A stretch of 33,266 bases of DNA from a virus: the IMG/VR virus record IMGVR_UViG_3300009481_000051, positions 1 to 33,266 of that record; one strand, given 5' to 3'. The position numbers and the translations under genes are program-made. The first letter of the stretch is position 1, and every line of letters starts with the position of its first letter. The notes under the pieces were generated by a model that saw only the letters and a program-made list of their open reading frames with translations, searched no databases and was not told where the DNA came from. Below, piece after piece: positions 1-33,266 of the stretch.

Positions 1-85
1 GCGGCGCTAATCGTAATCACCACGCCAGAAACAGCCATGAGTATTTTACCGGACATGCCCGTCCACTTGGAAAGAAACAAGATAC
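1..85. repeat. Terminal overlap copy 1, identical to 33182-33266. It marks circular closure or terminal redundancy.
   Basis: Base-by-base comparison shows 1-85 = 33182-33266. The repeat lies inside a minus-strand ORF that reads through the junction. Confidence 0.95.
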
Positions 86-22193: not shown

Positions 22194-22313
22194 CGGGTCG
22201 CTCCTTTTTTAGTCGGCAGGCGGCACCGGGAAACCACCCCCAGCGTTATCCGCCTGCCTAAACCCGGATACGGTCACACAACGAGGGGTGCAGGTGCCGG
22301 TCGGGGTTGTTTC

Positions 22314-22610
22314 TTATCCGCTGTCGCCCAACAGCCCACGCCGCACAGTCCGGCGCTCATAGATTTCATGCGTGCGCAATTCAAACACGCGACGGCCTGT
22401 GTCAAGCGCCTCGTTTATCGCCGCTTCAATAGCTTTGGTATCGTCGGCACCGAACCACGCCGGGTAACGGCGAACCGTCCCGTCCTTTTTGTTGATCGTG
22501 TGTGTAACGATACAGGTCATGGGCTTTGCCTGCACGTCAGTTGGCGGCACATATTCGTCCTTCACACCTTCTGCTTTTCCGCTTGGTTTTGTCTGCTTAT
22601 CGTCAGTCAT
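22314..22610 (-). CDS. Hypothetical protein (98 aa)
   Basis: ATG (MTDDKQTKP...) preceded by GAGG. It forms an ATGA overlap with the upstream wHTH gene. Confidence 0.55.
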   Translation of the reverse strand: MTDDKQTKPSGKAEGVKDEYVPPTDVQAKPMTCIVTHTINKKDGTVRRYPAWFGADDTKAIEAAINEALDTGRRVFELRTHEIYERRTVRRGLLGDSG

Positions 22611-22909
22611 ATTAACCTCATTTGTGTTGGCCGGACAGGAACCATTTCCCACAGGCTCTGTTTTTTCCCGAATTGGGAAAGGTTTGTGCCGTTCGCCCGG
22701 ATCAACCCGGCGTTCTGCAATTCTGTCAATCGCGGCCTGACCGAGACCAGTGGGCGCTCAAGGAAGTCTGCGATCCGCTCAACATCAATTGGACCAGCCG
22801 ACATGATGATTTCAAGCACCATCGCCTGCAACGTCATCGGTTTTGTTGGTGCTGCGGCCTTGCTGGTCGCTGTGTTCTGGTAGCCTACGCCCTGCGTGTT
22901 ATATGGCAT
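22607..22909 (-). CDS. Winged-helix (MarR-like) DNA-binding protein (100 aa)
   Basis: Internal ATG with GGAGGG upstream. The motif LQAMVLEIIMSAGPIDVERIADFLERPLVSVRPRLTELQNAGLIRANG fits a wHTH pattern. Confidence 0.6.
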   Translation of the reverse strand: MPYNTQGVGYQNTATSKAAAPTKPMTLQAMVLEIIMSAGPIDVERIADFLERPLVSVRPRLTELQNAGLIRANGTNLSQFGKKQSLWEMVPVRPTQMRLI

Positions 22910-23186
22910 CGTCACCCTCCGAATAATCCCCGTATAGCTCGCCGCGTTTTCGCTTGACCTTTGGCGGCTGTAGGGCTGGTTGTTCCCGATAAACCTCAAC
23001 GCGATCACCATGACCGTTGAGTGTGCCGATGACGACCAGCAGGCCGTCATCGCGCCAGCCTTCAAACGTGACCAGCTTGAAGGGCTTACCGGGCAACCTG
23101 CTTATGCAGCGCGGCACCGCCAGAAAATTATGGCAGCGGGCGATTGCGCTATCCCGCCACGCCTTGCGGATTATTGCTTGGCTCAT
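22899..23186 (-). CDS. Hypothetical protein (95 aa)
   Basis: ATGA overlap with the upstream gene. Same-strand operon context. Confidence 0.5.
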   Translation of the reverse strand: MSQAIIRKAWRDSAIARCHNFLAVPRCISRLPGKPFKLVTFEGWRDDGLLVVIGTLNGHGDRVEVYREQPALQPPKVKRKRGELYGDYSEGDDAI

Positions 23187-23389
23187 ATCGGCAACTGGTT
23201 CTTGTAATTCGTATACGCGCTGGACCCAATCATCGCCAACTCAATCTCGTCAGCAATTCGCGCCAAATAGTCAGTCGATAGACCCAAGTTGTCATCTGCG
23301 ACGGCTGTCAGCCTTCCATCTGCGGCAATAAAGACACGCATCAACGTAATGCCTTCGTGTGCCTGTTCGTAGTTCTTTTTCCCGGTCAT
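23183..23389 (-). CDS. Hypothetical protein (68 aa)
   Basis: Internal ATG (MTGKKNYEQ...) with GAAGGGGA upstream. The remainder of the 169-aa track ORF overlaps the VRR-NUC gene and was discarded. Confidence 0.55.
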   Translation of the reverse strand: MTGKKNYEQAHEGITLMRVFIAADGRLTAVADDNLGLSTDYLARIADEIELAMIGSSAYTNYKNQLPI

Positions 23390-23426
23390 TGTGATATTCC
23401 CCTTCTTGGTTTGGTTCCGCCTGATC

Positions 23427-23810
23427 CTACAGCTTTTTAACCCGTGTTGGCAATCCCGCGACCTCAAGAAACCGCTCAAGATCATCCAGCGATCGCACCA
23501 CCACGAACGACCAGCCCTGTGCGTTAAACAGGCCACGCACCCTCTGTTGCTCCGGCGAAAGCACACCCTTGGCCGTCTTAACTTCAAGCCCGTACAATGT
23601 CCCGCCGCAAGCCACGCACAGGTCGGGAAAGCCGGGTAGTTGCCCCATGCGTCCTTGCAGCGCGTTGGCGCGTCTGGCGGCGTCACCCGCAAGCGGTATG
23701 CCGTTGGGCGTATGCCAGAAAAACGTCAGCGCCGGATCAAGCACCGCCGCAAGATAATCAGCCATATGAATTTGCAATTGGGTCTCTGGGTTGAGGCGCG
23801 ATCTGGTCAT
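23427..23810 (-). CDS. VRR-NUC (PD-(D/E)xK) nuclease (127 aa)
   Basis: Motif GFPDLCVACGGTLYGLEVKTAKGVLSPEQQRVRGLFNAQGWSFVVV. I chose the start at the first ATG after the upstream stop; 23855 is an alternative. Confidence 0.7.
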   Translation of the reverse strand: MTRSRLNPETQLQIHMADYLAAVLDPALTFFWHTPNGIPLAGDAARRANALQGRMGQLPGFPDLCVACGGTLYGLEVKTAKGVLSPEQQRVRGLFNAQGWSFVVVRSLDDLERFLEVAGLPTRVKKL

Positions 23811-23823
23811 TTTTTTACCAATC

Positions 23824-24258
23824 TCAACAATGTGTTTGGTTGTCTGATGGTTCATCCTCTCTGTTTGGTGGGGTGGGTAGGGGTTGCCAAACATCATCCC
23901 CGTACTCTTTGCTCTTATGGAAAAATACGGGTCGTGTAAGTCCGCCTCTATCCTCATCAGATCGAAAGCCTTTATGTACGGTGTCAAAACGACAACGAAC
24001 AATCAGGTTCATCATCCTAGGATAACACACAAGAAATGTCGTTCCATCCTTTGGCGCTGACCCTATATCTCGCCACTTGCTTGGCTCGTCCACCAGTGCG
24101 GCAAGAACTCGGTTCGCGTTCCGCTCGGTCAGTCCTTTGATTGTGGTGCAGCCCCCGACGCCGTCAATTCCGTAAATCTTGCCAGACCTCCAGTTTTCCT
24201 CATCCTGCATTCCATAGGGTTGGTATATGTACGGTCCTTTCGGCTCTACGTTTGTCAT
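23824..24258 (-). CDS. DUF551-like phage protein (144 aa)
   Basis: The motif WRDIGSAPKDGTTFLV is typical of a common phage family of unknown function (from memory). Confidence 0.55.
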   Translation of the reverse strand: MTNVEPKGPYIYQPYGMQDEENWRSGKIYGIDGVGGCTTIKGLTERNANRVLAALVDEPSKWRDIGSAPKDGTTFLVCYPRMMNLIVRCRFDTVHKGFRSDEDRGGLTRPVFFHKSKEYGDDVWQPLPTPPNREDEPSDNQTHC

Positions 24259-24383
24259 GTGTCTGTTTCCTTTATTAGTGCAGCGCGGACGCGGGCATCG
24301 TAGTCGGCTTGGGCGGTGTGCGGGCGGGGGGATGCGTGTGACACCACTTCAACCCCGTCCTGACCAGATGCGTAGGCAGACAT
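24255..24383 (-). CDS. Possible small protein (42 aa), below the ORF track's size cutoff
   Basis: Hand translation gives MSAYASGQDGVEVVSHASPRPHTAQADYDARVRAALIKETDT*. Its stop forms an ATGA overlap with the next gene, and it fills the 147-nt gap after TerS. The RBS is weak. Confidence 0.35.
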   Translation of the reverse strand: MSAYASGQDGVEVVSHASPRPHTAQADYDARVRAALIKETDT

Positions 24384-24405
24384 TCTGCGTTCTTTGGTTA
24401 TTTCA

Positions 24406-24861
24406 TCAGTCATCGGTATCCCCCTCGGTAAATTTTACGACAGCCTTCCTGTCGGTAACAGGCGCGATCTGGTTCATGGTAAATGTATTCTCGTTTTCTC
24501 CGGTCGGCCCGTCAACCCCCGGTTCTTTCCAATCGTGATTAACCTCCAGATTGAACTGTGCGCCCCGGCTCATTTTATTATCGTACAGCGCTTCCTCTGC
24601 AAATTCCTCAATTCGCTGCCTCGCACGCGCGTAAACGTGTGAATATTCATCCTTTGTCGCGTAGTTTATCAACCCCTTGCGAGACAGGCCCAGAAACAGC
24701 GCCAAGCCGGACATCGTTGGAACTCTTGTTGTGGGCAGTTCGATTTTATTCCCGTCAGCGCCGATGACTATTTCAACGCCACCACGGCTTTTGAAGTATT
24801 CTTCAATCCGTTCCTGCAAGTGCTTTTCCGACTTGAACGCGAGTTTTCCCCTAGTTGCCAT
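24406..24861 (-). CDS. terS: Terminase small subunit (151 aa)
   Basis: HTH motif PTMSGLALFLGLSRKGLINY and RGAQFNLEVNHDWKE match the TerS pattern I recall (Terminase_2-like). The ATG shares one base with the MTase stop. Confidence 0.7.
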   Translation of the reverse strand: MATRGKLAFKSEKHLQERIEEYFKSRGGVEIVIGADGNKIELPTTRVPTMSGLALFLGLSRKGLINYATKDEYSHVYARARQRIEEFAEEALYDNKMSRGAQFNLEVNHDWKEPGVDGPTGENENTFTMNQIAPVTDRKAVVKFTEGDTDD

Positions 24862-25487
24862 TATTTTGTAACCTTAAAAACCATGAAATACGAATGGTAG
24901 ACCCTCGCGTGTTTTTGCTTTGGCCGCTGACCGTTGACCTTTGGTTGTGGCATCCTGTGCTTCGCGTTGAGGATAAACATATCCAACAGACGAAACCCTA
25001 CTTCTGCCGCCCACACTGTTGCTAAGATGTGCGTAGGTTTTAGCGCGTGATTGTGGATTATGTCCTGACACTTCAAAATCATAATGCCTTTATCCCGCAA
25101 GACCCTTGCTACGTCCGCGAATGTCTGGCGATAGTGTTCTTCCAGCTCGTTATACCTCCAATATCCAGAAAACTTGTCCGCCATCACCATTCCGCCGTTT
25201 TCGTTTCTAGCCCCCGGCTTACTGGCTTTGACGTAACAAAGGAACGGAGGGTCGAACACAACACTTTTTAAGGCGTCGTTTATTACGGGAATGTTGGTTG
25301 ACGACGCGGTGATTGTGTCAGCCAGTCCCTCGTGAATATCGAACCGAAGGCCCGGCCGGGACGCCATCCTTTTATAGAACCCACCGTTTCCAAAAGTAAC
25401 ATCGCAATCGAACATTTCCCCATTGTTATGCAACTCCATTATCGCCGTGAGGATTTCCGTTTGATCGTATGATGTTGTTTTAATCAT
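24861..25487 (-). CDS. DNA methyltransferase (N6-adenine or N4-cytosine class, 208 aa); no cognate restriction enzyme seen
   Basis: SAM motif TFGNGGFY comes first, then catalytic motif VVFDPPFLC (DPPF). No restriction-enzyme-like neighbour is present. Confidence 0.75.
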   Translation of the reverse strand: MIKTTSYDQTEILTAIMELHNNGEMFDCDVTFGNGGFYKRMASRPGLRFDIHEGLADTITASSTNIPVINDALKSVVFDPPFLCYVKASKPGARNENGGMVMADKFSGYWRYNELEEHYRQTFADVARVLRDKGIMILKCQDIIHNHALKPTHILATVWAAEVGFRLLDMFILNAKHRMPQPKVNGQRPKQKHARVYHSYFMVFKVTK

Positions 25488-25710
25488 CTTGATACCGGGC
25501 CTTAAGCATGGCGTCGGCCTGCGCCCACGCCTCGTCTGCGATTGATTTCAGGGAAACGGCTTTGTCGGCTGTGAGGGTGATGATAGCCGGTAATGCTGCC
25601 ATAGCAAAAGCGTCGCGTAGGCTCATGCCTGCGTGGTGCTCAAATTCCACGACTGGATAGGCTGGCCCGCCGTCGCTTCCGTCTTTGCGCAGTTCCAAAT
25701 GTGATGTCAT
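25480..25710 (-). CDS. Hypothetical conserved phage protein (76 aa)
   Basis: The ATG abuts the upstream stop. The motif GMSLRDAFAMAALPAI recurs in small phage proteins (from memory). Confidence 0.55.
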   Translation of the reverse strand: MTSHLELRKDGSDGGPAYPVVEFEHHAGMSLRDAFAMAALPAIITLTADKAVSLKSIADEAWAQADAMLKARYQDD

Positions 25711-26547
25711 TCAGTTGATCCTTTTCTGCTTTGCCGCCCTCTTGGTCATGGCGGTAATTTCTCCTTGAATGTCGCCGTCAGACTGACCGCCCTTTTTTTT
25801 GGGCGGGGAAGGCTGTCGGCCTTTGCCGTTTTGGCGCGGCATCGCCTCTTGTTCTGTGTCTTGATCTTGTTCTTGATCTTGTTCTTGATCTTGTTCTTGT
25901 TCTTGTTCTTGTTCTTGTTCTGTGTATAGCATAGGCATGGTAGAGGGTATGCGTTGGGTATCCGATAGGGTATGCCAGAGGGTATCGAAAACAATGTCTT
26001 GCGGGTCTGTTTTTGACAGGATGAAAGCGGCCTGAACGTCAAGCGGGGCTTGTTTTGACCACGCTTTCAGGCGATGAAATATCATATCTTCCATTTTCGA
26101 CCGTGCGTCCGTGATGTTCCAGCCGTCGCCACCTTTGGCTGAACCAATGGCTTTGTGTAATATATGGTGGCTGAACGTCAGAAATGCGGCGATTGTCAGA
26201 ACGCTTTCGGGCGCGTGGTCAAACTCTTTTTGCATCCGGCCAATTGCTTCCTGCGGCCCTTGTGGCGCGTTCTTTAATTCCCAATTCCTGATCCGACACA
26301 ACGCCTCATGGTGATCATAATCTATCAGCCCCGCAGCTTCTAGCTGGCCCAGCGCGTCAAGAATGTCAGTCTTGCCGGTGTCAAGATCGTCAGCAATCAC
26401 AACAGGCGCGATCCGGTACAGCCCCAGCGCGTTTCTCATGGGGCTGGTGTGCAGGTACACATAGACCAACTTTGTTGCAGCAGATAGCGGCCTGAATTTT
26501 CGAGACCGCCAGATCGTGCTGGCAATTATCCCCCAAGCATCAGCCAT
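25711..26547 (-). CDS. Putative replication initiator/organiser-like wHTH protein (278 aa) with an (E/D)Q repeat linker
   Basis: The N-terminus WRSRKFRPLSAATKLVYVYLHTSP...LGQLEAAGLIDYD resembles phage replication-organiser N-domains. The low-complexity tract is EQEQEQEQEQDQEQDQEQDQD, and the C-terminus is basic. Confidence 0.45.
   Translation of the reverse strand: MADAWGIIASTIWRSRKFRPLSAATKLVYVYLHTSPMRNALGLYRIAPVVIADDLDTGKTDILDALGQLEAAGLIDYDHHEALCRIRNWELKNAPQGPQEAIGRMQKEFDHAPESVLTIAAFLTFSHHILHKAIGSAKGGDGWNITDARSKMEDMIFHRLKAWSKQAPLDVQAAFILSKTDPQDIVFDTLWHTLSDTQRIPSTMPMLYTEQEQEQEQEQDQEQDQEQDQDTEQEAMPRQNGKGRQPSPPKKKGGQSDGDIQGEITAMTKRAAKQKRIN
25848..25925. repeat. Hexanucleotide tandem array (CTTGTT/CTTGAT, 13 units) inside the replication-like gene
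   Basis: Read directly from the sequence: cttgtt ctgtgt (cttgat cttgtt)x3 (cttgtt)x4 ctgtgt. GATC sites at 25863, 25875 and 25887 are 12 bp apart. Confidence 0.9.
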
Positions 26548-26757
26548 TCAAGCAGCTTTCGGGGCTTCAAAAACCCGGACAAGCGCGACAACCTTGTGCC
26601 TGTTGTCATCCCACCAATATTTTGTTGCCCCGGCGGCTCGTTCCATTTCAGGCCCGCCCAACTTACTACCGCCAGCTGCTACAATCTTAACCGCAACCCC
26701 GACCAACTTATGGTCAAGCGCCGCTACCGTGTGTGCATTGTGAATTGTGACCTGCAT
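26548..26757 (-). CDS. Hypothetical protein (69 aa)
   Basis: Its stop abuts the next ATG. Operon context. Confidence 0.5.
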   Translation of the reverse strand: MQVTIHNAHTVAALDHKLVGVAVKIVAAGGSKLGGPEMERAAGATKYWWDDNRHKVVALVRVFEAPKAA

Positions 26758-26761
26758 AATT

Positions 26762-27109
26762 TTACCCCTGTGCTTCCCGGAAGTCGTCGTTTCTCATTGT
26801 CCCGCCACCAATTCCGGGCTTGGCGACATCATCGTATTTATGATTTGTCTTAATCCGGGTTAGCTCGCGCGACAAATACGCGCCCAGCCGTTGTTCAAGT
26901 GTGAATGCGTCCGTGCCTTGAAACACCTTTAAAACCCACGCAGCAACATGCGGCTTGCACTCCAACATGACCTTGAATTTTGTCTGCATTTCAGGCTTTG
27001 GCAATAATTCCGCCTCGGCACGCACCATCGCGGCACCCAACGTACCACCATCAGCGGTCTGTATTTCCTTCGCCCGCTCCGTAATTTTTTTCTCGCTTGT
27101 TTCAGCCAC
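26762..27109 (-). CDS. Hypothetical protein (115 aa), first gene of the leftward block
   Basis: GTG start with GGTGGGG upstream. It lies downstream of the predicted leftward promoter. Confidence 0.55.
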   Translation of the reverse strand: MAETSEKKITERAKEIQTADGGTLGAAMVRAEAELLPKPEMQTKFKVMLECKPHVAAWVLKVFQGTDAFTLEQRLGAYLSRELTRIKTNHKYDDVAKPGIGGGTMRNDDFREAQG

Positions 27110-27227
27110 TTAACCGCCCCACCAGATTTTATTTACAAAAAAGTTGACTTTATTTACGAAAAGGGGTTGCGAAGGTCAAGCGCTTTCTTTACAAGGGGTG
27201 TTGTAACCACAAAAGGGGAAATATGAT
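27110..27227. promoter_or_regulatory. Divergent control region with a three-copy TTT(A/C)TTTAC motif and a predicted leftward sigma70-like promoter
   Basis: The motif occurs at 27128-27136, 27149-27157 and 27184-27192. The minus strand reads TTGACC (27179-27174), then 17 nt, then TAAATA (27156-27151). This is the only sizeable AT-rich non-coding gap between divergent genes. Confidence 0.55.
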
Positions 27228-27791
27228 ATGACAAAGTACAAAATCACAGCAAAAACTAAAGTCCACTTTGGTATCACCCTACACCAAATTCAAGCAACAG
27301 TTTCTTTCGGCACTGTCGTGAAGGGTGAAATCGGCGGCTGGATCGAAACCGAGAAAAACCTAACTCAAGACGGCAATGCGTGGGTCTCTGGCAATGCGCA
27401 GGTCTTTGGCGGTGCGCAGGTCTCTGGCGATGCGCAGGTCTCTGGCGATGCGCAGGTCTTTGGCGATGCGCAGGTCTTTGGCAATGCGTGGGTCTCTGGC
27501 AATGCGCAGGTCTTTGGCGGTGCGCAGGTCTCTGGCGATGCGCAGGTCTTTGGCAATGCGTGGGTCTCTGGCGATGCGCAGGTCACACCACTTTATGTTC
27601 AGGGGTTAATGTGGCCGGTAACAATTACAGACAAGCACATCAGAATTGGCTGTGAATTTCACCCAATCTCTGAGTGGGAGAAGTTCGACAGTCGCCGCAT
27701 TCTTGAAATGGGAGGCAAGACCGCGCTGAAATTCTGGCAGACGTACAAAAATTTCATCTTGGGTATTGCCAAGACCGAAGAGCGGGGTTGA
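27228..27791 (+). CDS. Hexapeptide-repeat (left-handed beta-helix/bactofilin-like) protein (187 aa), first early gene
   Basis: AAGGGGA RBS. Twelve G-[NDG]-A-[QW]-V-[SF] hexapeptides are flanked by a conserved-looking N-terminus (GITLHQIQA...[13 protein letters not shown]) and C-terminus ([22 protein letters not shown]). Confidence 0.8.
27372..27587. repeat. 12 tandem copies of an 18-bp unit (GGCRRTGCGYRGGTCTYT)
   Basis: Read directly from the sequence. Units 1-3 (27372-27425) are identical to units 7-9 (27480-27533). All frames on both strands stay open across the array. Confidence 0.95.
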
Positions 27792-27803
27792 GGATATATC
27801 ACA

Positions 27804-28082
27804 ATGGAAATAACCCACAACATAGACCTATGCTTGCCCGAGGGCCAGCTAGAGGACGTTGCCGCGACTTTCGACATCACAACCGAAGTCGTTGATCGTG
27901 AACCTCATTCATGGGGCGAAGGCCGGGGTAGCAGAACAGATCACAAAGCCGCACTGGTCAGCGTTAAACTTGGTGACGCGACCATTGGCCGTGATCAGTC
28001 TGATTTGATGTTTGGCCCTGATATTGTCGGAGCCGAGGCGACGGTAGAGATATTGCTTAACGATGGAGACTTGGAGCTATGA
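27804..28082 (+). CDS. Strongly acidic small protein (92 aa)
   Basis: GAGGA upstream. By eye, about 20 Asp/Glu against about 6 Lys/Arg. ATGA overlap with the next gene. Confidence 0.6.
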   Translation: MEITHNIDLCLPEGQLEDVAATFDITTEVVDREPHSWGEGRGSRTDHKAALVSVKLGDATIGRDQSDLMFGPDIVGAEATVEILLNDGDLEL

Positions 28083-28312
28083 ATGACCGAACGCCGTCAC
28101 ACGACGATCCGATCTTTGAAGCGTATATCAGGCTGTCATCCGGTCTGCATTTTGCAATCGGCTATCTTAAAGCGTGTCCGGCTGACAATTCGGTCCGACA
28201 GGCTTTACTGCCAGAACTTGAAGCGGCAGCGGCACAGGGCAAGGGAAAATTTCTACAAAGCATTTCAGAAACATATGGAGGCGTCGGCGATGACAATCAC
28301 CCGAAAGGCTAA
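28079..28312 (+). CDS. Hypothetical protein (77 aa)
   Basis: Coupled ATGA start. Operon context. Confidence 0.5.
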   Translation: MNDRTPSHDDPIFEAYIRLSSGLHFAIGYLKACPADNSVRQALLPELEAAAAQGKGKFLQSISETYGGVGDDNHPKG

Positions 28313-28658
28313 ATCTTTACAGGCGGAAAAGGCCAAGGCCGTCAAATATCCGGTCGAGTATTTGGATAGAATAGGCCATCCTGATTGCATGCTGGAAGGA
28401 TTACCCGGCAACCTGCGTGAACCCTACGCCCGCTGGTATTTATTCGGGGCTGAACCCAGCCAATTCCTGCGGGCCGTCATCGACAATGATTTGTTTATGG
28501 CAATGGCCTCAACCGACAGGTGGAGCATCAAGCAACTGCGCGAGACAGTGTTTTGGTTTATCGACCACGCCCCTGCCGCGTGCCACAAAGGCCGTGCGCA
28601 GGCTTGGCAAGATGCCGGTGGCTGGATTGGCCGCGCCAAGGAAAGGGGCGAGTTATGA
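28290..28658 (+). CDS. Hypothetical protein (122 aa)
   Basis: Internal ATG at 28290 preceded by GGAGG 8 nt upstream. The long track ORF (28083-) overlaps the previous gene in another frame. Confidence 0.55.
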   Translation: MTITRKAKSLQAEKAKAVKYPVEYLDRIGHPDCMLEGLPGNLREPYARWYLFGAEPSQFLRAVIDNDLFMAMASTDRWSIKQLRETVFWFIDHAPAACHKGRAQAWQDAGGWIGRAKERGEL

Positions 28659-28873
28659 AATGTCGGTGGCACAAATGCCGCAACAAATTCAAGCCTCGCC
28701 ACCATATGCAGACGTTTTGCTCCGATGATTGTCAACAGCAACGGGCCGCGTGGAAACGGATCAGAGGTGCAGCGCTCGTTGATCCTCTCTTAAATGACGA
28801 TCCGACTGCGCTTGAACGTCACCGCGAAAAGATTTTGAAAGAGGTGGGTCGTGCCAAAAAAAATACCGAGTGA
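28655..28873 (+). CDS. Small FCS/TRASH-like zinc-ribbon protein (72 aa)
   Basis: ATGA-coupled ATG with GGAAAGGGG upstream. The Cys pattern is CRWHKC...FCSDDC. Confidence 0.6.
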   Translation: MKCRWHKCRNKFKPRHHMQTFCSDDCQQQRAAWKRIRGAALVDPLLNDDPTALERHREKILKEVGRAKKNTE

Positions 28874-29123
28874 CAAACTGACCGACTGGCCGCTGGCCGA
28901 TCAGGCGCTTGCCGACCGCATGGCCGCTACCGTGGCGGGACAGGTCTCATGGGTTGATCTTGGCCGCACGGAAACCTGCGCTGAATGCCAGCACTACAGC
29001 GAAAAGGGATCATCCAGTGACGGCTTTGGTTATTGCGGAGAAGCAACCTCGCGCAACGGAAACAAGATGGTAAAGAAAATTCCCAGAACCGCCCGCGCTT
29101 GTAGTCTGTTTGGCACCGAATGA
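28851..29123 (+). CDS. Cys-rich hypothetical protein (90 aa)
   Basis: GTG start after GAGGTGGG. The Cys pattern is CAECQH...GYCGE...ACSLF. Confidence 0.5.
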   Translation: MPKKIPSDKLTDWPLADQALADRMAATVAGQVSWVDLGRTETCAECQHYSEKGSSSDGFGYCGEATSRNGNKMVKKIPRTARACSLFGTE

Positions 29124-29515
29124 GTGCGCGATCAACAAGCAAAAGGCTCCACCTGATTGACAGCCTACTTGGCGGCAAAAAATACAACCCCCGCAAGATA
29201 ATCTGTCCCGCCTGTGCGTTGCCCATGTATGTAAGCCCAAGAGAAACCAATGCAGAATTTACGCTGCGTTACACAATCATAACCGGGGCAGAGCCAACGG
29301 CAAAAGAGATAAAGCGGCGGGTTGCAACAGTCGATCACGTCAAATCCCAAAGAAACGGGGGATCACTACGTTGGGGCAACTTGGTCTTAATATGCCAAAG
29401 CTGTAACGTCGAAAAAGGCCCTCGCCCAATCAGCGAGTGGGCTGCATGGCGGGCCATCAAAGGTCGACCCATTCCGCCACAATTTATAAAAAAGCTCGAA
29501 AGGAAAGAGAGATAA
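29120..29515 (+). CDS. HNH endonuclease (131 aa)
   Basis: The motif VDHVKSQRNGGSLRWGNLVLICQSCNVEKG is preceded by a CPAC pair. ATGA-coupled start. Confidence 0.8.
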   Translation: MSARSTSKRLHLIDSLLGGKKYNPRKIICPACALPMYVSPRETNAEFTLRYTIITGAEPTAKEIKRRVATVDHVKSQRNGGSLRWGNLVLICQSCNVEKGPRPISEWAAWRAIKGRPIPPQFIKKLERKER

Positions 29516-29516
29516 T

Positions 29517-30308
29517 ATGACCAACAGCAACCATGACGATCCGTTTGGCCTGCCGCCGCTTAAAGAGCCTCACGAAGATATAACAAACCAAGACGGCGCA
29601 AGATATTACCACCGCCTGACGCAAGGGTCCGAAGAATGGCATGATCTGCGCCGGGGCTTAATTACTGCCAGCACAATGAACCTAATTTTGACGCCAACCC
29701 TAAAGCTCGCGGCCAACAACACTACGCGAACACTCTTGTATGAGCTCGCTGCCCAGCGGATCACCGGAAAAACAGAAATCGGTTTTGTCAGCTATGACAT
29801 GGAGCGTGGCAAGCTGGCCGAAGTGGACGCGCGGGAAGTGTACAGCAAAAACATTGCCGATGTATCCGAGTGCGGCTTTGTCGTGACCGAGACGACCGAG
29901 GGTGCGACCGTTGGTTACAGCCCGGATGGATTGGTCGGCATGGACGGCCAAATCGAAATCAAATCACGCCTGCCCAAATATCAGGTTAAAACAATTGTTG
30001 AACATATGGCCGCTGGCGTAAAAGCCGATACAGTCATCCCGCCGGAATTTATGCTGCAAGTACAGGCTGGCCTGTTTGTAACCGGGCGCATTTGGTGCGA
30101 TTTCGTCACCCATTCCAACGGCTTCAACATGGCCGTGATCCGATGCCATCCCCTGCATGACTATCAAGAGGCCATCGCCAAGGCAGTCACTGCCGCCGAA
30201 GAACAAATCCAGCGCATTGTCCGGGAATACCAAGCCATCACAGCCGACAAAAACGCAACCATCTGGCCTGTTGATTGGGTCGATTATCATGAGGAAATCA
30301 CTGTATGA
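29517..30308 (+). CDS. YqaJ-type (lambda Exo-like, PD-(D/E)xK) recombination exonuclease (263 aa)
   Basis: AAGGAAAGAGAG RBS. Motifs are GSEEWHDLRRGLITAST, ERGKLAEVDAREVY and YSPDGLVGMDGQIEIKS. Confidence 0.85.
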   Translation: MTNSNHDDPFGLPPLKEPHEDITNQDGARYYHRLTQGSEEWHDLRRGLITASTMNLILTPTLKLAANNTTRTLLYELAAQRITGKTEIGFVSYDMERGKLAEVDAREVYSKNIADVSECGFVVTETTEGATVGYSPDGLVGMDGQIEIKSRLPKYQVKTIVEHMAAGVKADTVIPPEFMLQVQAGLFVTGRIWCDFVTHSNGFNMAVIRCHPLHDYQEAIAKAVTAAEEQIQRIVREYQAITADKNATIWPVDWVDYHEEITV

Positions 30309-30943
30309 CCGATCTTTCAAAAACCATCGAACCCAAAAGTGACCAGTTGAACGCTGACGATCTGATTGCCGGGCCCCGCACTATTACCGTGACGGACGTT
30401 CGCGGCGTGAGCGGTGACGCCCAGCCCATTTCCATCCACTATGAAGGCGACAACGGCAAGCCCTACAAGCCGTGCAAGTCCATGCGCCGGGTGCTGGTTG
30501 TGGTCTGGGGAGCGAGCGGGGCAGACTACGCCGGGCGATCCATGACCCTGTATCGCGACCCGAATGTAAAGTTTGGCGGGATCGCAGTCGGCGGCATTCG
30601 GATCAGCCACATGAGCCATATCAACGATAAAGTCACAATGTCGCTGACCGTAAGCCGGGCAAACCGCAAACCCTACACCGTCAACCCGCTCAAGGGCGCG
30701 GACCAGAACACGACCGCCACCGGACAAAATGTCGATCCCGCAGCCGCAGCGGCGGCGGCACTAATTGCAGCGCAAAACGCGGCGGCAGGTGGCACCAGCG
30801 CGTTTCAAATCTGGTGGAACACCGACGAAGGCAAGGAGGCACGATCATTTTTAACCAGCGACATGGAGGACTTGAAAAAAATATGTAAAGAAGCCGACGA
30901 CCAACAAGACCAATCAAATGGAGAAGAGCATGCCGACGAGTAA
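30305..30943 (+). CDS. Conserved phage protein (212 aa) coupled to the exonuclease; candidate ssDNA-binding/annealing partner
   Basis: ATGA overlap with the exonuclease gene. The protein has a beta-rich N-domain (KFGGIAVGGIRISHMS), an Ala-rich linker and an acidic C-terminal tail (DDQQDQSNGEEHADE). The function is inferred from position. Confidence 0.6.
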   Translation: MTDLSKTIEPKSDQLNADDLIAGPRTITVTDVRGVSGDAQPISIHYEGDNGKPYKPCKSMRRVLVVVWGASGADYAGRSMTLYRDPNVKFGGIAVGGIRISHMSHINDKVTMSLTVSRANRKPYTVNPLKGADQNTTATGQNVDPAAAAAAALIAAQNAAAGGTSAFQIWWNTDEGKEARSFLTSDMEDLKKICKEADDQQDQSNGEEHADE

Positions 30944-31247
30944 AAACAAACGCAGCAACGGAAACACGGCGATCAGACCAGCCACGAAGAAGCCCGCCCC
31001 AGCGGCAAAAGCGCCGACACACGCTGTTGTTGTCTCAGGTCACGGACCAGACGGCTGGGAACAACTGGCCCTTTATCAACCGGGCGGCCAACTACCAACA
31101 GCACCGGGAATGCTGACGGCAATCAGCCGTATCCGTGATGGAGGCCACAGGTCCGTAAACATCGCAGGCTTGATTGAAGTCGATTTGGGGCAGTACCGGG
31201 CATTCAAGGCCGAGGCTGTGCCTGTCGAAGAAACTCCGGCGAAGTGA
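30930..31247 (+). CDS. Hypothetical protein with a basic N-terminus (105 aa)
   Basis: ATG at 30930 with GGAG 6 nt upstream. The ATG at 30918 is an alternative. Confidence 0.5.
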   Translation: MPTSKNKRSNGNTAIRPATKKPAPAAKAPTHAVVVSGHGPDGWEQLALYQPGGQLPTAPGMLTAISRIRDGGHRSVNIAGLIEVDLGQYRAFKAEAVPVEETPAK

Positions 31248-31626
31248 GTACAAAGTTGCACTCTAAGGGCCACCAGATCGCCGCAAACAAGGCGCGCGGG
31301 GGGTATGCCCAAAACACGTCTGCACGGAGTGTGGTGGCCCCTACAAGCGCAGACGCAGGGACGCAGATTTTTGCTCTACCGGGTGCGCGAACAAGTTCAA
31401 CAACCGTCGTCGCCTGCGCGGTGAACAGATTTACGATCTGTTTATGATTAACCGCCATGATCGAGGCTTTGCCAAAACGGCAAGGGTTTGGTTTCGCCTG
31501 ACGCGATTGGCCATGTACTGGCGGGACGATGACAAAGCCAAACGCGATGGTCGCAGGTCATGGGCGAGGCGCGATAAAGTCATGGCGCGAACCGCATGGG
31601 CGATGGCTACTGTAATGAAGGGATAG
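31244..31626 (+). CDS. FCS/TRASH-like zinc-ribbon protein whose frame is interrupted: a -1 shift at the G6 run (31298-31303) is needed for a continuous product
   Basis: The GTG at 31244 overlaps the upstream stop (GTGA) and opens frame 2 (MSTKLHSKGHQIAANKARGG). The protein-like sequence VCPKHVCTECGGPYKRRRRDADFCSTGCANKFNNRRR...MINRHDRGF... lies in frame 1. Frame 1 has no ATG, GTG or TTG between its upstream stop (31264) and 31444. Confidence 0.55.
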
Positions 31627-31628
31627 GG

Positions 31629-31841
31629 CTAAACGAACTCGTCACATGCGGCGCGGTGGACGATCCTTTGAAAGGTCAGTCCCCGCGCCGTTTCCAATGT
31701 GTCTTTGCGCGAAGGCAAAAACAGAGTGTCAGACCAAGCCCGGCAGATTTCTTTTTCAGTCTCTGTACTCAATTTCATCGTCGCGCACCCGCTCAACGTC
31801 GCGGACACGATCACGCACAGCATCAGCTTTTTCTTGGTCAC
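31629..31841 (-). CDS. o-spanin (outer-membrane lipoprotein, 70 aa)
   Basis: GTG start after GAGGGA. The signal peptide and lipobox read MTKKKLMLCVIVSATLSG|C. The gene starts inside the i-spanin gene in another frame (86-nt overlap). Confidence 0.7.
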   Translation of the reverse strand: MTKKKLMLCVIVSATLSGCATMKLSTETEKEICRAWSDTLFLPSRKDTLETARGLTFQRIVHRAACDEFV

Positions 31842-31962
31842 GTTCCCTCGCTTTCACGATCTGGTTTTCAAGCGCGTCATTGACCGCCTTGGCTTTCCAG
31901 CGAAATAACCCGGCGATGAATGCCAGAATAATCAATCCATAGATTTGCAGTTTGAGGTTCAT
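31756..31962 (-). CDS. i-spanin candidate (68 aa): N-terminal TM plus a charged coiled-coil
   Basis: The TM segment IYGLIILAFIAGLF is followed by KAKAVNDALENQIVKARERDQEKADAVRDRVRD. ATGA-coupled start. It is short for an i-spanin. Confidence 0.6.
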   Translation of the reverse strand: MNLKLQIYGLIILAFIAGLFRWKAKAVNDALENQIVKARERDQEKADAVRDRVRDVERVRDDEIEYRD

Positions 31963-32201
31963 GCCTGTTCACCGCCCATGTCGCGGCAAACAACTTCTAT
32001 CCAAACCAACGTGGCCGGAATTGTGGTAAAATATTGTCGTATGTTTCGCTCTACCGTTGTCGTTTTCTCAAGGCAATCGTTTAAGCTGGCGTGAAATTCA
32101 ACAACCTCCGGCTGGTGTGCAGCCGTTACAACGCCAGCGTTGCAGCTCAGAATGCCGCTCGCCAGCGTTGCGCAGACATGGACAATGGCAATAAAGGACA
32201 T
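31959..32201 (-). CDS. Secreted or lipoprotein-like small Cys-containing protein (80 aa)
   Basis: The N-terminus MSFIAIVHVCATLASGILSC is a hydrophobic signal with a lipobox-like ILSC. The ATG has GGGGGA 7 nt upstream and overlaps the endolysin stop. Confidence 0.5.
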   Translation of the reverse strand: MSFIAIVHVCATLASGILSCNAGVVTAAHQPEVVEFHASLNDCLEKTTTVERNIRQYFTTIPATLVWIEVVCRDMGGEQA

Positions 32202-32866
32202 CACAAAATCCCCCGGCGCTGTTTGCTCACGCGGCTGTAAATGATGTAGCCAGCAAAGCCGACAACTGCCACCAGACCCACCGCAACGATTGCCTGTGCG
32301 ATAGGATCAAGCGCACCGATTGCCGCCAGCGCTGATCCGCTGGCCGTGGCCACCGTGCCGATTGCCGCCTTGTTGGTCCCGCTGTCAAAAAAGCTGGCCG
32401 TCTTGGGCTTGGCCTGCGTCAGCCATTCAGAGACATTGAAGCCGGGGCAGGCTTTGTTGGCAAACTCGTTGTGGCCCTTAACCCATTTTATCGTAGGATA
32501 CCGGGCTTTCAGTTCTTTAAGTTTCGCGCGCAGCCATGCGTCTTGCTTCGGTGTGAAGTGGTCGAAGAACTGGTCGGTCGCCGCACTGCCGTGACCGCCG
32601 AAAAGCACCAGCCCAATAGTGTTGCGGTTGTGGCCTTTGGTGTGCGCACCAATGTCATCAAACACATCGCCGTCACCGTCCAAATCGCGGCCCTTGGCTT
32701 CGGTGCCGTCACGGTCGCAGCCAAGGGCGTAACCTACGTCGCGCCAGCCGCGTTCTTCGACGTGCCAACGCTTGATTTCCGCCATTTTTTCGTCTGCGGA
32801 TTTGCCCGCCATCCAGTCGGGCCGCGTGTCGCTGCAATGAATGATTACGCCTTCGATCTGTCGCAT
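32201..32866 (-). CDS. N-acetylmuramoyl-L-alanine amidase endolysin (Amidase_2/T7-lysozyme-like, 221 aa) with a C-terminal transmembrane tail
   Basis: ATG at 32866 with GGAGAGGGAG upstream. Motifs are VIIHCSDT, RGWRDVGY and KGHNEFANKACPGF (His/His/Cys zinc-ligand pattern). The C-terminus reads IAQAIVAVGLVAVVGFAGYIIYSRVSKQRRGIL. Confidence 0.88.
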   Translation of the reverse strand: MRQIEGVIIHCSDTRPDWMAGKSADEKMAEIKRWHVEERGWRDVGYALGCDRDGTEAKGRDLDGDGDVFDDIGAHTKGHNRNTIGLVLFGGHGSAATDQFFDHFTPKQDAWLRAKLKELKARYPTIKWVKGHNEFANKACPGFNVSEWLTQAKPKTASFFDSGTNKAAIGTVATASGSALAAIGALDPIAQAIVAVGLVAVVGFAGYIIYSRVSKQRRGIL

Positions 32867-32929
32867 GGGTCTCCCTCTCCATCGGTGCCGAATGATCGAC
32901 AGGTAGCACAACCACAGAGGTAGGGCAAA

Positions 32930-33145
32930 TCAATCCTGTTTTTGCGCGTTGGCCTCTGGCGCTTCGGCGTCAATCTCGCGTTCAAGCCGTTGAATTTCGC
33001 CAAGCAGATAATCTTGGCCGGGATCAAGCGCGGGCGGCTGCAGGGCGAACCAGAAAACCAGCCCAATAACGCCGACAGCGCCAGCAATATAGAGATACCA
33101 AAGAACCCCCGTCTTTACGTGGTCTTTTGTGACTGCGTATTTCAC
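32930..33145 (-). CDS. Holin candidate (71 aa) with a single N-terminal TM and a charged C-terminus
   Basis: The GTG start forms a GTGA overlap with the junction-spanning gene. The TM segment is GVLWYLYIAGAVGVIGLVFWFAL. It lies immediately upstream of the endolysin. Confidence 0.55.
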   Translation of the reverse strand: MKYAVTKDHVKTGVLWYLYIAGAVGVIGLVFWFALQPPALDPGQDYLLGEIQRLEREIDAEAPEANAQKQD

Positions 33146-33266
33146 GAGCCAACCCCTAGCAGCTTTACAAGAGCGAAGTACGCGGCGCTAATCGTAATCA
33201 CCACGCCAGAAACAGCCATGAGTATTTTACCGGACATGCCCGTCCACTTGGAAAGAAACAAGATAC
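33142..33266 (-). CDS. 3' part of the junction-spanning small TM protein gene; bases 33182-33266 duplicate 1-85
   Basis: It reads in frame from the copy of bases 1-85 and ends ...ISAAYFALVKLLGVGS* at 33142. Confidence 0.6.
   Translation of the reverse strand, partial: ILFLSKWTGMSGKILMAVSGVVITISAAYFALVKLLGVGS
33182..33266. repeat. Terminal overlap copy 2, identical to 1-85
   Basis: Direct comparison of the two ends. Confidence 0.95.

What the first reader, a model, noticed from the sequence alone, without database searches (positions are those of the whole stretch)
27228..27791. The first early gene is a beta-helix hexapeptide-repeat protein built from 12 near-identical 18-bp DNA repeats
The gene immediately downstream of the divergent control region encodes 12 consecutive G-[N/D/G]-A-[Q/W]-V-[S/F] hexapeptides (27372-27587). 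These lie between a conserved-looking N-domain and a C-domain ([22 protein letters not shown]).

At the DNA level the units are almost identical, and one 54-bp block (27372-27425) is repeated exactly at 27480-27533. This points to recent expansion or contraction by slippage or recombination, so copy number is probably variable between isolates.

The first-injected, first-expressed position is where podoviruses usually place host-takeover or anti-restriction functions; T7 Ocr is the classic example. Regular beta-helices with a periodic Asp, such as the pentapeptide-repeat DNA mimics, show that this kind of fold can imitate DNA or form filaments. The function of this family is unknown.
Basis: partly seen in the sequence, partly recalled or inferred. 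Interest (0 to 1): 0.65.

Follow-up and report, generated by a model that had tools for sequence, protein, structure and literature searches.

The report
Variable-length beta-solenoid early phage protein
The gene is real and belongs to a very large, functionally unstudied family of early phage proteins in which a fast-changing repeat "rod" of variable length sits between two conserved end domains; a near-identical phage carries exactly half the repeats.

Summary
ORF 27228-27791 (187 aa) contains 12 in-frame 18-bp units (27372-27587). The exact duplicate is 70 bp, not 54 bp.

The units share every Gly, Ala and Val codon (0 synonymous vs 113 non-synonymous pairwise differences). A 99.8-100% identical phage contig from another sample has a clean 108-bp (6-unit) deletion. 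Related cultured Vibrio phages also differ in array length.

The protein has three parts:
- a YdcK-like N-terminal cap (PDB 2F9C/2PIG);
- a hexapeptide solenoid (Pfam PF18836; PHROG 5070/7964, function unknown);
- a roughly 65-aa C-terminal domain with a near-invariant IGC..H....W core and no Pfam or PDB match.

The same C-domain is more often carried on pentapeptide-repeat solenoids, which sit in the same genomic slot. In over ten loci that slot is the early operon, beside the immunity switch or recombination genes.

"First-injected" is unsupported: the assembly is circular and the small terminase is P22-gp3-like. The charge data do not support an Ocr-like polyanionic DNA mimic. Acyltransferase and bactofilin membership tests fail.

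Best reading: a non-enzymatic early accessory protein with a length-tolerant rod presenting a conserved C-terminal head. Its target is unknown. It is a new member of a known but uncharacterised family.

The parts
27110..27227 (.). 118-bp AT-rich intergenic region between divergent genes. It holds three direct repeats, TTTATTTACAA-like, at 27128, 27149 and 27184. It is the presumed control region for both transcription arms of the genome.
   Evidence: ORF layout; repeats. No sigma-70 consensus match lies inside it, so promoter function is inferred from the layout only.
27213..27219 (+). Shine-Dalgarno-like AAGGGGA, about 9 nt upstream of the ATG
   Evidence: Read from the sequence.
27228..27791 (+). 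CDS of 187 aa plus stop: the modular beta-solenoid protein
   Evidence: phrog_5070 at 2.9e-44, phrog_7964 at 1.5e-43, PF18836 at 6e-10; more than 6,000 homologous clusters.
27228..27371 (+). N-terminal YdcK-like cap domain (aa 1-48): a beta-hairpin plus the GGWIE..NL motif
   Evidence: phmmer to PDB 2F9C, E 2e-17, aa 15-108. AF2 pLDDT about 80-86. Foldseek to 2PIG: 60 columns, rmsd 3.6 A, 28% identity.
27372..27587 (+). Array of 12 x 18 bp, giving 12 hexapeptides G-[N/D/G]-A-[Q/W]-V-[S/F/T]. If it is a left-handed beta-helix, this is 4 coils.
   Evidence: TRF; unit list; codon homogeneity; family consensus G-N/D-A-R/Q/W-V-S/Y/F.
27372..27441 (+). First copy of the 70-bp exact duplicate, a substrate for unequal recombination
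27480..27549 (+). Second copy of the 70-bp exact duplicate. The 108 bp separating the two copies is exactly what is missing in the related contig L001.
27588..27788 (+). C-terminal domain (aa 121-187): four short strands plus a long helix, with no Pfam or PDB match. It is shared with pentapeptide-repeat phage proteins.
   Evidence: AF2 pLDDT 90-95. No Pfam hit. No PDB fold or sequence match. 1,155 cluster representatives, with the domain always C-terminal. Architectures.
27645..27677 (+). Near-invariant core [11 protein letters not shown] (I140, G141, C142, H145, W150): candidate functional site
   Evidence: Conservation over 212 sequences: I 0.94, G 0.99, C 0.97, H 0.92, W 0.98.

Best explanation
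The gene encodes a small cytoplasmic, non-enzymatic accessory protein. It is transcribed as the first gene of the rightward (early, non-structural) arm of a roughly 33.2-kb podovirus-like genome.

The protein has three modules:
1. A YdcK-like N-terminal cap.
2. A hexapeptide beta-solenoid 'rod'.
3. A conserved C-terminal 'head' of about 65 aa with the core IGC..H....W.

Shown here: the rod is encoded by DNA repeats that are homogenised within each phage lineage, which is concerted evolution. These repeats gain and lose whole units by recombination between identical blocks. The window has 12 units and its near-identical relative has 6. Family members range from 5 to 26 units with no preference for whole turns.

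Also shown: the same head domain is carried on a different kind of solenoid (pentapeptide repeats, and a GGxIx repeat) in proteins that occupy the same genomic slot.

Inferred: the head is the conserved working part, a binding or oligomerisation module that possibly uses C142 and H145. The rod is a length-tolerant rigid scaffold or spacer.

Most speculative step, which I put at about 25-30%: the protein acts early in infection by binding and modulating a host DNA-processing or defence enzyme. That would make it analogous in role to lambda Gam, P22 Abc or Lar, whose genes sit in the same kind of early recombination neighbourhood.

The stated confidence of 0.6 applies to the architectural and evolutionary model plus the 'non-enzymatic early accessory protein' reading. 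It does not apply to the specific target.
For: Anatomy.

Family membership: PF18836 and PHROG 5070/7964; the YdcK crystal structure is the only solved relative.

Not an enzyme by sequence:
- No Hexapep PF00132 hit, and Bactofilin is below threshold.
- The NCBIfam YdcK equivalog scores 66.8 bits against a cutoff of 350.
- The units are insertion-free with only 3 variable positions.

Concerted evolution: 0 synonymous against 113 non-synonymous differences among the units, and each lineage has its own fixed codon set.

Copy-number change:
- L001 is 99.8-100% identical over 15.9 kb, with a clean 108-bp deletion between the 70-bp duplicates.
- Vibrio breoganii phage isolates have identical N- and C-domains but arrays giving 200, 255 and 260 aa. 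Two further isolates have disrupted arrays.
- Family range is 5-26 units, and all three phases modulo 3 occur.

Modularity: the C-domain search gave 1,155 clusters, always C-terminal. Of the top 148, 81 are pentapeptide, 18 hexapeptide and the rest other or fragments. P0270 has the same N-cap and C-domain around a GG[T/E]I[R/W] repeat.

Conserved core residues.

Position:
- Early regions in an Autographiviridae phage, a Kafunavirus, Sfi19 and Zobellviridae phages.
- Next to HTH/Cro switches and ERF, AAA_24, YqaJ or PDDEXK recombination genes.
- Abutting a Lar restriction-alleviation gene and methyltransferases in one locus.
- The pentapeptide versions are in the same slot, upstream of ERF and NinB.
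Against: - No experiment or publication bears on the function.
- AlphaFold did not fold the array with confidence in two runs. The solenoid therefore rests on homology to YdcK, and the oligomeric state is unknown.
- Proximity to recombination genes is typical of many early genes and is weak evidence for a target.
- About half of the hexapeptide-family members carry unrelated C-terminal domains: type B (hhalign probability 0.1%) and DUF7666/DUF5758. The N-cap plus rod may therefore be more than a passive carrier.
- The 12 versus 6 difference comes from two short-read metagenome assemblies and could in principle be a collapse.
- Early transcription of this particular gene is inferred from layout. 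No sigma-70-like promoter was found in the intergenic region.
Confidence: 0.6

Rival explanations
1. The solenoid surface itself is the active part. The protein would be a rod-shaped nucleic-acid mimic, as Qnr/MfpA pentapeptide-repeat proteins or Ocr are. It would titrate a DNA-binding host enzyme such as a restriction enzyme, RecBCD or gyrase, and rod length would set the length of 'DNA' mimicked.
For: The head domain is shared with genuine pentapeptide-repeat proteins (PF00805), and that fold is an established DNA mimic (general knowledge; reviewed in PMC10886550, which was listed but not read). The gene is early and lies near recombination, Lar and methylase genes. Arrays are mildly acidic on average.
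Against: The charge is weak and not conserved. It averages -0.6 per coil with a range of -2.2 to +1.1. Arg is the most frequent residue at exposed position 4, and the whole window protein is -1. Rod type and length vary freely, while the C-domain is what is conserved.
Confidence: 0.15
2. It is a polymer-forming, bactofilin-like cytoskeletal protein that builds filaments in the infected cell. This is how NCBI names several homologues.
For: Sub-threshold Pfam Bactofilin match (20.6 bits against a cutoff of 27.9). Precomputed PF04519 hits on many homologues, and the source name 'polymer-forming cytoskeletal protein'.
Against: The score is below the gathering threshold. The best-supported relative is YdcK, annotated as belonging to the 'trimeric LpxA-like' class. 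Both solenoid ends carry folded globular domains, which would block end-to-end polymerisation; this last point is an inference.
Confidence: 0.07
3. It is a hexapeptide-repeat acyl- or acetyl-transferase, as several GenBank records call homologues. It would modify a host or phage substrate, like the prophage enzyme NeuO.
For: Hexapeptide periodicity; 'putative acyltransferase' or 'transferase' labels in records; NeuO shows that prophages can carry repeat-variable hexapeptide transferases (PMC3046976).
Against: No PF00132 Hexapep hit. LpxA matches only at E 0.5. The units are perfect and loop-free, with no conserved His or other catalytic residue in the array. Length varies from 5 to 26 units, which is incompatible with a fixed active site. 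In NeuO the variable repeat is a 7-bp unit in the 5' region, not the hexapeptide coils themselves (my recollection of that paper's content beyond the abstract).
Confidence: 0.03
4. The 18-bp repeats act at the DNA level, for example as origin iterons or a recombination hotspot, and the coding capacity is secondary.
For: The array lies 0.7 kb from a DnaD-like replication initiator gene. Lambda-type origins are iteron arrays inside genes (general knowledge).
Against: The protein family is conserved at the amino-acid level in thousands of phages whose DNA repeat sequences and codons differ. All unit variation is non-synonymous and in frame. No spacing between units. The array length halves in a near-identical phage.
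Confidence: 0.03
5. The 12 versus 6 unit difference is an assembly artefact, a collapse or expansion of a short-read de Bruijn graph, rather than a biological polymorphism.
For: Both sequences are metagenome assemblies. L001 is a k141 contig, and arrays of this family visibly break assemblies: Ca. Glomeribacter contigs of 314-754 bp end in arrays, and two Vibrio phage records have frameshifted or interrupted arrays. The exact 187-aa protein is on record nowhere else.
Against: The longest exact repeat (70 bp) is shorter than k = 141, so the structure is resolvable. The deletion is a precise, in-frame, single recombination product between the duplicates. The two genomes are truly different strains, with 14 SNPs elsewhere. 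Independent isolate genomes show the same kind of variation, and the family spans 5-26 units.
Confidence: 0.2

Closest known systems
YdcK (Salmonella/E. coli; PDB 2F9C, 2PIG; Pfam PF18836 B_solenoid_ydck; NCBIfam NF040481)
   Same: The N-terminal cap and the first coils are homologous (phmmer E 2e-17, aa 15-108; Foldseek 60 columns at rmsd 3.6 A). It has the same hexapeptide solenoid repeat type. Its function is also unknown.
   Different: YdcK is a 326-aa chromosomal protein with irregular coils throughout and no IGC..H..W C-domain. The window protein scores 66.8 bits against the equivalog cutoff of 350. The phage protein has perfect, DNA-level tandem units and variable length.
PHROG 5070 / 7964 (phage proteins of unknown function; e.g. 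Streptococcus phage Sfi19 orf229, Vibrio phage 1.139.A NVP1139A_58)
   Same: Direct family membership for aa 2-120 (E about 1e-44). Same early-region location. Same variable arrays.
   Different: C-terminal domains differ between members. Only about half carry the domain found here.
Phage and prophage pentapeptide-repeat proteins (Pfam PF00805), and by extension Qnr/MfpA/AlbG
   Same: They share the same C-terminal domain of about 65 aa and the same genomic slot. They have the same design: cap, variable-length solenoid, then a C-terminal helix-containing domain. In Qnr and MfpA a C-terminal helix mediates dimerisation into a rod (general knowledge).
   Different: A five-residue repeat and a right-handed quadrilateral helix, against a six-residue repeat. 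A different N-cap. No evidence here for gyrase binding or for strong acidity.
Left-handed beta-helix acyltransferases (LpxA, NeuO of prophage CUS-3)
   Same: Hexapeptide periodicity with three units per coil. NeuO is prophage-encoded and repeat-variable.
   Different: No Hexapep Pfam hit, no catalytic loops or residues, and no fixed length. In NeuO the variable repeats lie outside the hexapeptide coils.
Bactofilins (PF04519)
   Same: A beta-solenoid of similar width, and a weak profile similarity.
   Different: Below the Pfam threshold. Folded caps at both ends rather than disordered tails. Different handedness, if the protein is YdcK-like.
Early anti-nuclease or anti-restriction proteins (T7 Ocr, lambda Gam, P22 Abc2, Lar)
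   Same: A small early accessory gene placed beside recombination or anti-restriction genes.
   Different: No sequence or fold similarity, and not strongly acidic. The functional analogy is a hypothesis only.

Membership tests
Pfam PF18836 YdcK beta-solenoid repeat | Score at or above the gathering threshold (30 bits) | tested here: met
   38.7 bits, E 6.1e-10, 3 stretches.
PHROG 5070 / 7964 | Significant profile match | tested here: met
   E 2.9e-44 and 1.5e-43, but only over aa 2-120. The C-domain matches other PHROGs, 31567 and 37032.
NCBIfam NF040481 YdcK family (equivalog) | Full-length match at or above 350 bits | tested here: not met
   66.8 bits, covering profile positions 20-125 of 326 only.
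Left-handed beta-helix fold | Three hexapeptides per coil forming a triangular left-handed prism in a structure or a confident model | tested here: inconclusive
   Sequence homology to the solved YdcK structure, and a homologue record labelled 'trimeric LpxA-like'. However, the array has AF2 pLDDT below 50 in both models.
Hexapeptide acyltransferases (PF00132) | Hexapep profile match | tested here: not met
   No PF00132 hit at E up to 0.1. LpxA in the PDB matches only at E 0.52.
Hexapeptide acyltransferases (PF00132) | Conserved catalytic residues or loops interrupting the coils | tested here: not met
   The units are uninterrupted. Only positions 2, 4 and 6 vary, and no conserved His is present.
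Bactofilin (PF04519) | Score at or above the gathering threshold (27.9 bits) | tested here: not met
   20.6 bits.
Bactofilin (PF04519) | Polymerisation into filaments | not testable with these tools
   Needs purified protein or cell imaging.
Pentapeptide-repeat proteins (PF00805; Qnr/MfpA type) | Five-residue A(D/N)LXX repeat | tested here: not met
   The unit is six residues and there is no Pentapeptide hit. Only the C-domain is shared with such proteins.
Polyanionic DNA mimics (Ocr-like) | Dense, conserved negative surface charge | tested here: not met
   Array -5 over 72 aa; whole protein -1; family mean -0.6 per coil with a range up to +1.1.
Known anti-phage defence proteins (PADLOC) | Profile match | tested here: not met
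   No hit at E up to 0.1.
Early (pre-replicative) phage genes | Location in the early operon, outside structural and lysis modules | tested here: met
   The window layout and more than 10 related loci.
Early (pre-replicative) phage genes | Early transcription measured | not testable with these tools
   No expression data. No sigma-70-like promoter was found in 27110-27227.

The most novel reading that the evidence does not exclude
These proteins form a widespread, unrecognised class of phage early effectors. A conserved Cys/His/Trp C-terminal head is displayed on interchangeable beta-solenoid rods (hexapeptide, pentapeptide or GGxIx). The DNA repeats of the rod make its length hyper-evolvable. 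Rod length would be under arms-race selection because it tunes how the head, or the rod as a nucleic-acid-like decoy, engages a host nuclease or defence complex. That would make this a protein-level 'contingency locus' in phages.
Probability: 0.15. Interest if true: 0.75.

Novelty: new member of a known kind. Interest (0 to 1): 0.5.

Why it matters
The family is very large: more than 6,000 clusters at 90% identity for the N-cap plus rod, and about 1,155 clusters at 50% identity for the C-domain. It occurs in phages of Proteobacteria, Firmicutes, Actinobacteria, Bacteroidota, Saccharibacteria and others. It sits in the early region wherever that can be judged, and it has no known function.

Early accessory genes of this kind are where anti-defence and host-takeover functions are usually found. 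A conserved head on freely exchangeable, length-variable solenoids is a clear and testable design.

There are also practical consequences. These arrays are mis-annotated as CRISPR spacers or as 'acyltransferase', 'glycerol kinase' or 'MFS transporter'. They break short-read assemblies. Their length polymorphism could serve as a strain marker.

Tried and rejected
- Megablast of window 20000-33266 against 50,697 phage genomes gave no match.
- Exact-pattern scans for the array's 5' flank in IMG/VR and in JGI metagenomes found nothing. Only one close relative, L001, is available. The exact 187-aa protein is not on record elsewhere.
- The word-indexed homology search with the 68-aa C-domain failed because the query was too short, which wasted one search. 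It was replaced by the exhaustive HMMER search.
- Two AlphaFold2 runs, on the 12-unit protein with 30 sequences and on the 6-unit allele with 38 sequences, both left the array below pLDDT 50.
- Foldseek against the PDB (twice) and BFVD, plus a PDB profile search of the C-domain, gave only YdcK, uncharacterised phage proteins, and a spurious WD40 hit produced by summing many insignificant repeats.
- Pfam at E up to 10 on the isolated N- and C-domains found nothing credible. PADLOC found nothing.
- The type-B C-terminal tails (GCF.GT..EF) are not demonstrably homologous to this C-domain (hhalign probability 0.1%).
- A requirement for whole beta-helix turns, meaning unit number as a multiple of 3, was rejected because all three phases occur.
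- Stand-alone C-domain proteins were rejected as probable fragments, since they cluster with full-length proteins.
- A D135/H137/C142/H145 metal site was considered. The predicted strand register puts H137 and H145 on opposite faces of the hairpin, and no model coordinates were available to check this, so it is left open.
- Nine literature searches found no functional study of this family.
Full report
1. THE OBSERVATION

The ORF 27228-27791 (+ strand, 187 aa) is present. It has a Shine-Dalgarno-like AAGGGGA about 9 nt upstream of the ATG, and its N-terminus (MTKYKIT) matches that of its homologues.

Tandem Repeats Finder reports an 18-bp array at 27372-27584 with 11.8 copies, 86% matches, no indels and a score of 300. 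In frame it reads: [72 protein letters not shown].

Identity runs for 70 bp (27372-27441 = 27480-27549), with a spacing of 108 bp or six units.

The units differ only at amino-acid positions 2, 4 and 6:
- All 12 Gly codons are GGC, all Ala codons GCG and all Val codons GTC.
- The phage's large genes use these codons at 0.47, 0.40 and 0.22.
- There are 0 synonymous and 113 non-synonymous pairwise codon differences.
- By my arithmetic, the chance of this codon uniformity is about 3e-17.

2. WHAT THE PROTEIN IS

Pfam gives PF18836, the YdcK beta-solenoid repeat (38.7 bits, above the threshold of 30). Bactofilin is sub-threshold at 20.6 against 27.9, and there is no Hexapep hit.

PHROGs gives phrog_5070 and phrog_7964, both 'unknown function', at about 1e-44, but only for aa 2-120. 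Residues 104-180 match different PHROGs.

The only solved relative is the structural-genomics protein YdcK (2F9C/2PIG), at E 2e-17 over aa 15-108. The NCBIfam YdcK equivalog is far from met, at 66.8 against 350 bits. PADLOC finds nothing.

Two AlphaFold2 runs gave the following:

| Region | pLDDT |
|---|---|
| N-domain | about 80-86 |
| C-domain | about 90-95 |
| Repeat array | below 50 |

Foldseek recovers only YdcK for the N-domain (60 columns, rmsd 3.6 A) and nothing for the C-domain. BFVD returns only uncharacterised phage proteins.

The solenoid fold therefore rests on homology to YdcK. I could not confirm its handedness or its oligomeric state.

3. FAMILY ANATOMY

More than 6,000 clusters match the protein. 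The 120 best share one plan:
- a conserved N-domain of about 48 aa (…TL.RI.A…G..GGWIE…NL…);
- 5-26 hexapeptides with the consensus G(0.89)-N/D(0.53/0.40)-A(1.0)-R/Q/W-V(0.96)-S/Y/F;
- a C-terminal domain of about 70 aa, which comes in several types.

Among proteins with the same linker as the window, the cap-to-head spacing falls in all three phases modulo 18. Unit number is therefore not constrained to whole turns.

An exhaustive HMMER search with the window's C-domain found 1,155 cluster representatives at E up to 1e-3, and the domain is always at the C-terminus. The top 148 break down as follows:

| Architecture | Count |
|---|---|
| Pentapeptide repeats A[D/N]LxG (4-22 units) with a different N-cap | 81 |
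| Hexapeptide arrays | 18 |
| Other (including short arrays and GGxIx or NSSVx-type repeats) | 31 |
| Short ORFs | 18 |

The short ORFs are probably fragments. Both short representatives that I looked up (P0124, P0137) cluster with full-length proteins. P0270 has the window-type N-cap and C-domain around a GG[T/E]I[R/W] repeat.

Over 212 sequences the C-domain core is nearly invariant: I140 0.94, G141 0.99, C142 0.97, H145 0.92, W150 0.98, I158 0.97. It has no Pfam family and no PDB relative by sequence or by fold.

The type-B tails seen in gut-phage relatives are not demonstrably homologous to it.

4. ARRAY DYNAMICS

P0001 is encoded on the ENA contig ERZ27249630 k141_87541 (33,251 bp; locus L001). 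It is the same protein with one substitution (T29A) and exactly six fewer units.

At the DNA level L001 is 99.8-100% identical to the window over 15.9 kb. The only length difference is a clean 108-bp deletion whose junction lies inside the 70-bp duplicate.

Outside the array the two genomes differ by 14 SNPs:
- 8 in terL;
- 1 at 26677 and 4 in the 115-aa ORF beside the control region;
- 1 in this gene.

The 5.8 kb downstream is identical. These are therefore distinct but very close strains.

The L001 array equals window units 7-12. A simple duplication of L001's six units would not give the window's order. The most economical history is a single deletion from a 12-unit ancestor.

Five related Vibrio breoganii Zobellviridae isolates have identical N- and C-domains. 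Three have arrays giving 200, 255 and 260 aa. One has a frameshifted array and one an interrupted array.

Each lineage's array uses its own fixed codon set: GGC/GCG/GTG in L007, GGT/GCA/GTC in Sfi19, and GGT/GCT/GTG in the Vibrio phages. That is the signature of concerted evolution by repeated unequal recombination.

All of these are short-read assemblies, so a collapse cannot be excluded for any single case. Arrays of this family do break assemblies, as in the Ca. Glomeribacter contigs of 314-754 bp. However, the 70-bp repeat is shorter than k = 141, and the pattern recurs independently.

5. GENOMIC SETTING

The window has an 85-bp terminal direct overlap and is therefore a circular assembly of about 33.2 kb. 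It has no tRNA genes and no nucleotide-level relative among sequenced phages.

The minus strand carries, running leftward from the control region:
- a 115-aa ORF and a 69-aa ORF;
- a DnaD-like initiator;
- a methylase;
- a P22-gp3-type small terminase;
- TerL;
- a T7-type portal;
- the capsid;
- tail tube A and B;
- internal virion proteins;
- a tail spike;
- across the circular junction, an amidase endolysin.

The plus strand from 27228 to about 31250 carries this gene, several small ORFs, an HNH endonuclease, a YqaJ exonuclease and phrog_11517.

The whole genome is thus two divergent arms leaving one 118-bp intergenic region (27110-27227). That region contains three TTTATTTACAA-like direct repeats but no sigma-70 consensus match. 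The gene is indeed the first on the rightward arm.

The nearest portal is that of 'Dunaliella viridis virus SI2' at 47.6%. Next come Methylophilales, Pelagibacter, Vibrio and Liberibacter podophages. The closest genomic relatives of the protein are in Alphaproteobacteria, at 62%.

Because the map is circular and the small terminase is of the headful type, 'first-injected' has no support.

6. CONTEXT OF HOMOLOGUES

| Locus | Context |
|---|---|
| Aeromonas phage Aer_P220 (Autographiviridae) | Early genes upstream of the RNA polymerase |
| Edwardsiella Kafunavirus | 3.2 kb from the left end |
| Streptococcus phage Sfi19 (orf229) | Between the lysis and replication modules |
| Zobellviridae Vibrio phages | Among small early ORFs |
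| L006 | HTH switch, AAA_24, then the target, then YqaJ |
| L007 | HTH switch, then a 70-aa ORF, then the target |
| Acetobacter garciniae prophage (L014) | Cro/YdaS \| HTH, 163 aa, target, ERF, YqaJ, RNase T |
| L025 | ERF, SSB, Lar_restr_allev, then the target, then MT-A70 |
| L026 | HTH switch, Rha, target, PDDEXK, AAA_24, helicase |
| L027 | Target, then primase, DnaB and ligase |
| L028 | HTH, ERF, SSB, then the target |
| L029, L030 (pentapeptide versions) | Same slot, upstream of ERF and NinB |

None of these lies in a structural module. The weak PHROG tail-fibre hits (E about 1e-3) are repeat-composition matches.

7. MECHANISM

Shown:
- a three-module protein;
- a rod encoded by homogenised, recombining repeats of variable length and of interchangeable type;
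- a conserved head;
- an early, non-structural location.

Inferred:
- The protein is not an enzyme. There are no catalytic loops or residues and no fixed length.
- The head is the selected working part.
- The rod is a rigid, length-tolerant scaffold. In left-handed beta-prisms three hexapeptides make one turn (PMC7890094). Each added unit should therefore turn the head by a third of a turn, and three units should add one coil.

Speculative, at about 25-30%: the protein modulates a host DNA-processing or defence enzyme, by analogy with what lambda gam, P22 abc and lar do from equivalent positions.

The polyanionic-mimic idea is weakened by the charge data. The window array is -5 over 72 aa and the whole protein -1. 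The family mean is -0.6 per coil with a range up to +1.1. Arg is the commonest residue at exposed position 4.

In the canonical [LIV]-x-x-x-[STAV]-x register, V5 and A3 point inward and the N/D residue sits at a prism vertex next to Gly. Its periodicity therefore has an obvious structural reading.

8. NOVELTY AND VERDICT

The gene is a new member of a database-recognised but functionally uncharacterised phage family. Nine literature searches found no study of it.

- direct evidence for copy-number change;
- the concerted-evolution signature;
- the shared C-terminal head on hexapeptide, pentapeptide and other solenoids;
- the conserved early-operon slot.

Interest is moderate at 0.5. The family is large and unexplained and the hypothesis is testable, but no function has been demonstrated.

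Noticed in passing
window 1-85 and 33182-33266: An 85-bp exact terminal direct overlap. The window is a circularly assembled, apparently complete phage genome of about 33.2 kb, organised as two divergent arms leaving one intergenic region.
   Followed up: partly
L005, L008-L011 (GenBank MG592510, MG592419, MG592418, MG592579, MG592511): The deposited Vibrio phage records annotate 'CRISPR spacer' ncRNA features inside the homologous gene. These are false CRISPR calls caused by the 18/54-bp coding repeat. Other records label homologues 'glycerol kinase', 'MFS-type transporter' or 'acyltransferase'.
   Followed up: partly
L010 (Vibrio phage 1.209.O) and L011 (1.139.B): In two of five related isolates the array carries a frameshift or in-frame stops. 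The gene is either dispensable for lab growth or these are repeat-induced assembly errors.
   Followed up: partly
window 25847-25921: A second coding tandem repeat: a 6-bp unit x 12.5 (TCTTGT on the + strand). It encodes an (E/D)Q linker, EQEQEQEQEQDQEQDQEQDQD, in the DnaD-like replication initiator (25711-26547, minus strand). Its length is identical in L001.
   Followed up: partly
window 27128-27194: Three direct repeats, TTTATTTACAA / TTTATTTACGA / TTTCTTTACAA, spaced 21 and 35 bp apart in the divergent intergenic region. They are candidate operator or promoter elements. No sigma-70 consensus promoter was found there.
   Followed up: partly
window 26939-27044 and 20595-22008: SNPs between the window and L001 are clustered: 8 in terL, and 4 within about 105 bp of the 115-aa ORF next to the control region (three of these within 4 bp at 26939-26942). 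The 5.8 kb downstream of the array is identical.
   Followed up: no
window 4245-7610 (minus strand, 1121 aa): A large virion-module protein whose aa 816-956 match P-loop ATPase and polynucleotide-kinase PHROGs (phrog_2071, phrog_505). Its aa 247-700 match a giant-protein PHROG and a portal-associated PHROG. This is an unusual enzymatic domain for an internal or ejected virion protein.
   Followed up: no
L016-L018 (Ca. Glomeribacter gigasporarum contigs of 314-754 bp): Several tiny contigs of one genome assembly consist of little more than this gene's N-domain and array. Assemblies break at these repeats, and the genome may hold several copies.
   Followed up: no
P0121 (295 aa): A protein with pentapeptide repeats followed by two tandem copies of the C-domain. 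In the first copy the invariant Cys is replaced (IGR instead of IGC).
   Followed up: no
window 29120-30308: An HNH endonuclease gene (29120-29515) directly abuts the YqaJ exonuclease gene (29517-30308) in the same early arm. The neighbouring 212-aa phrog_11517 protein may be the missing annealase partner.
   Followed up: no
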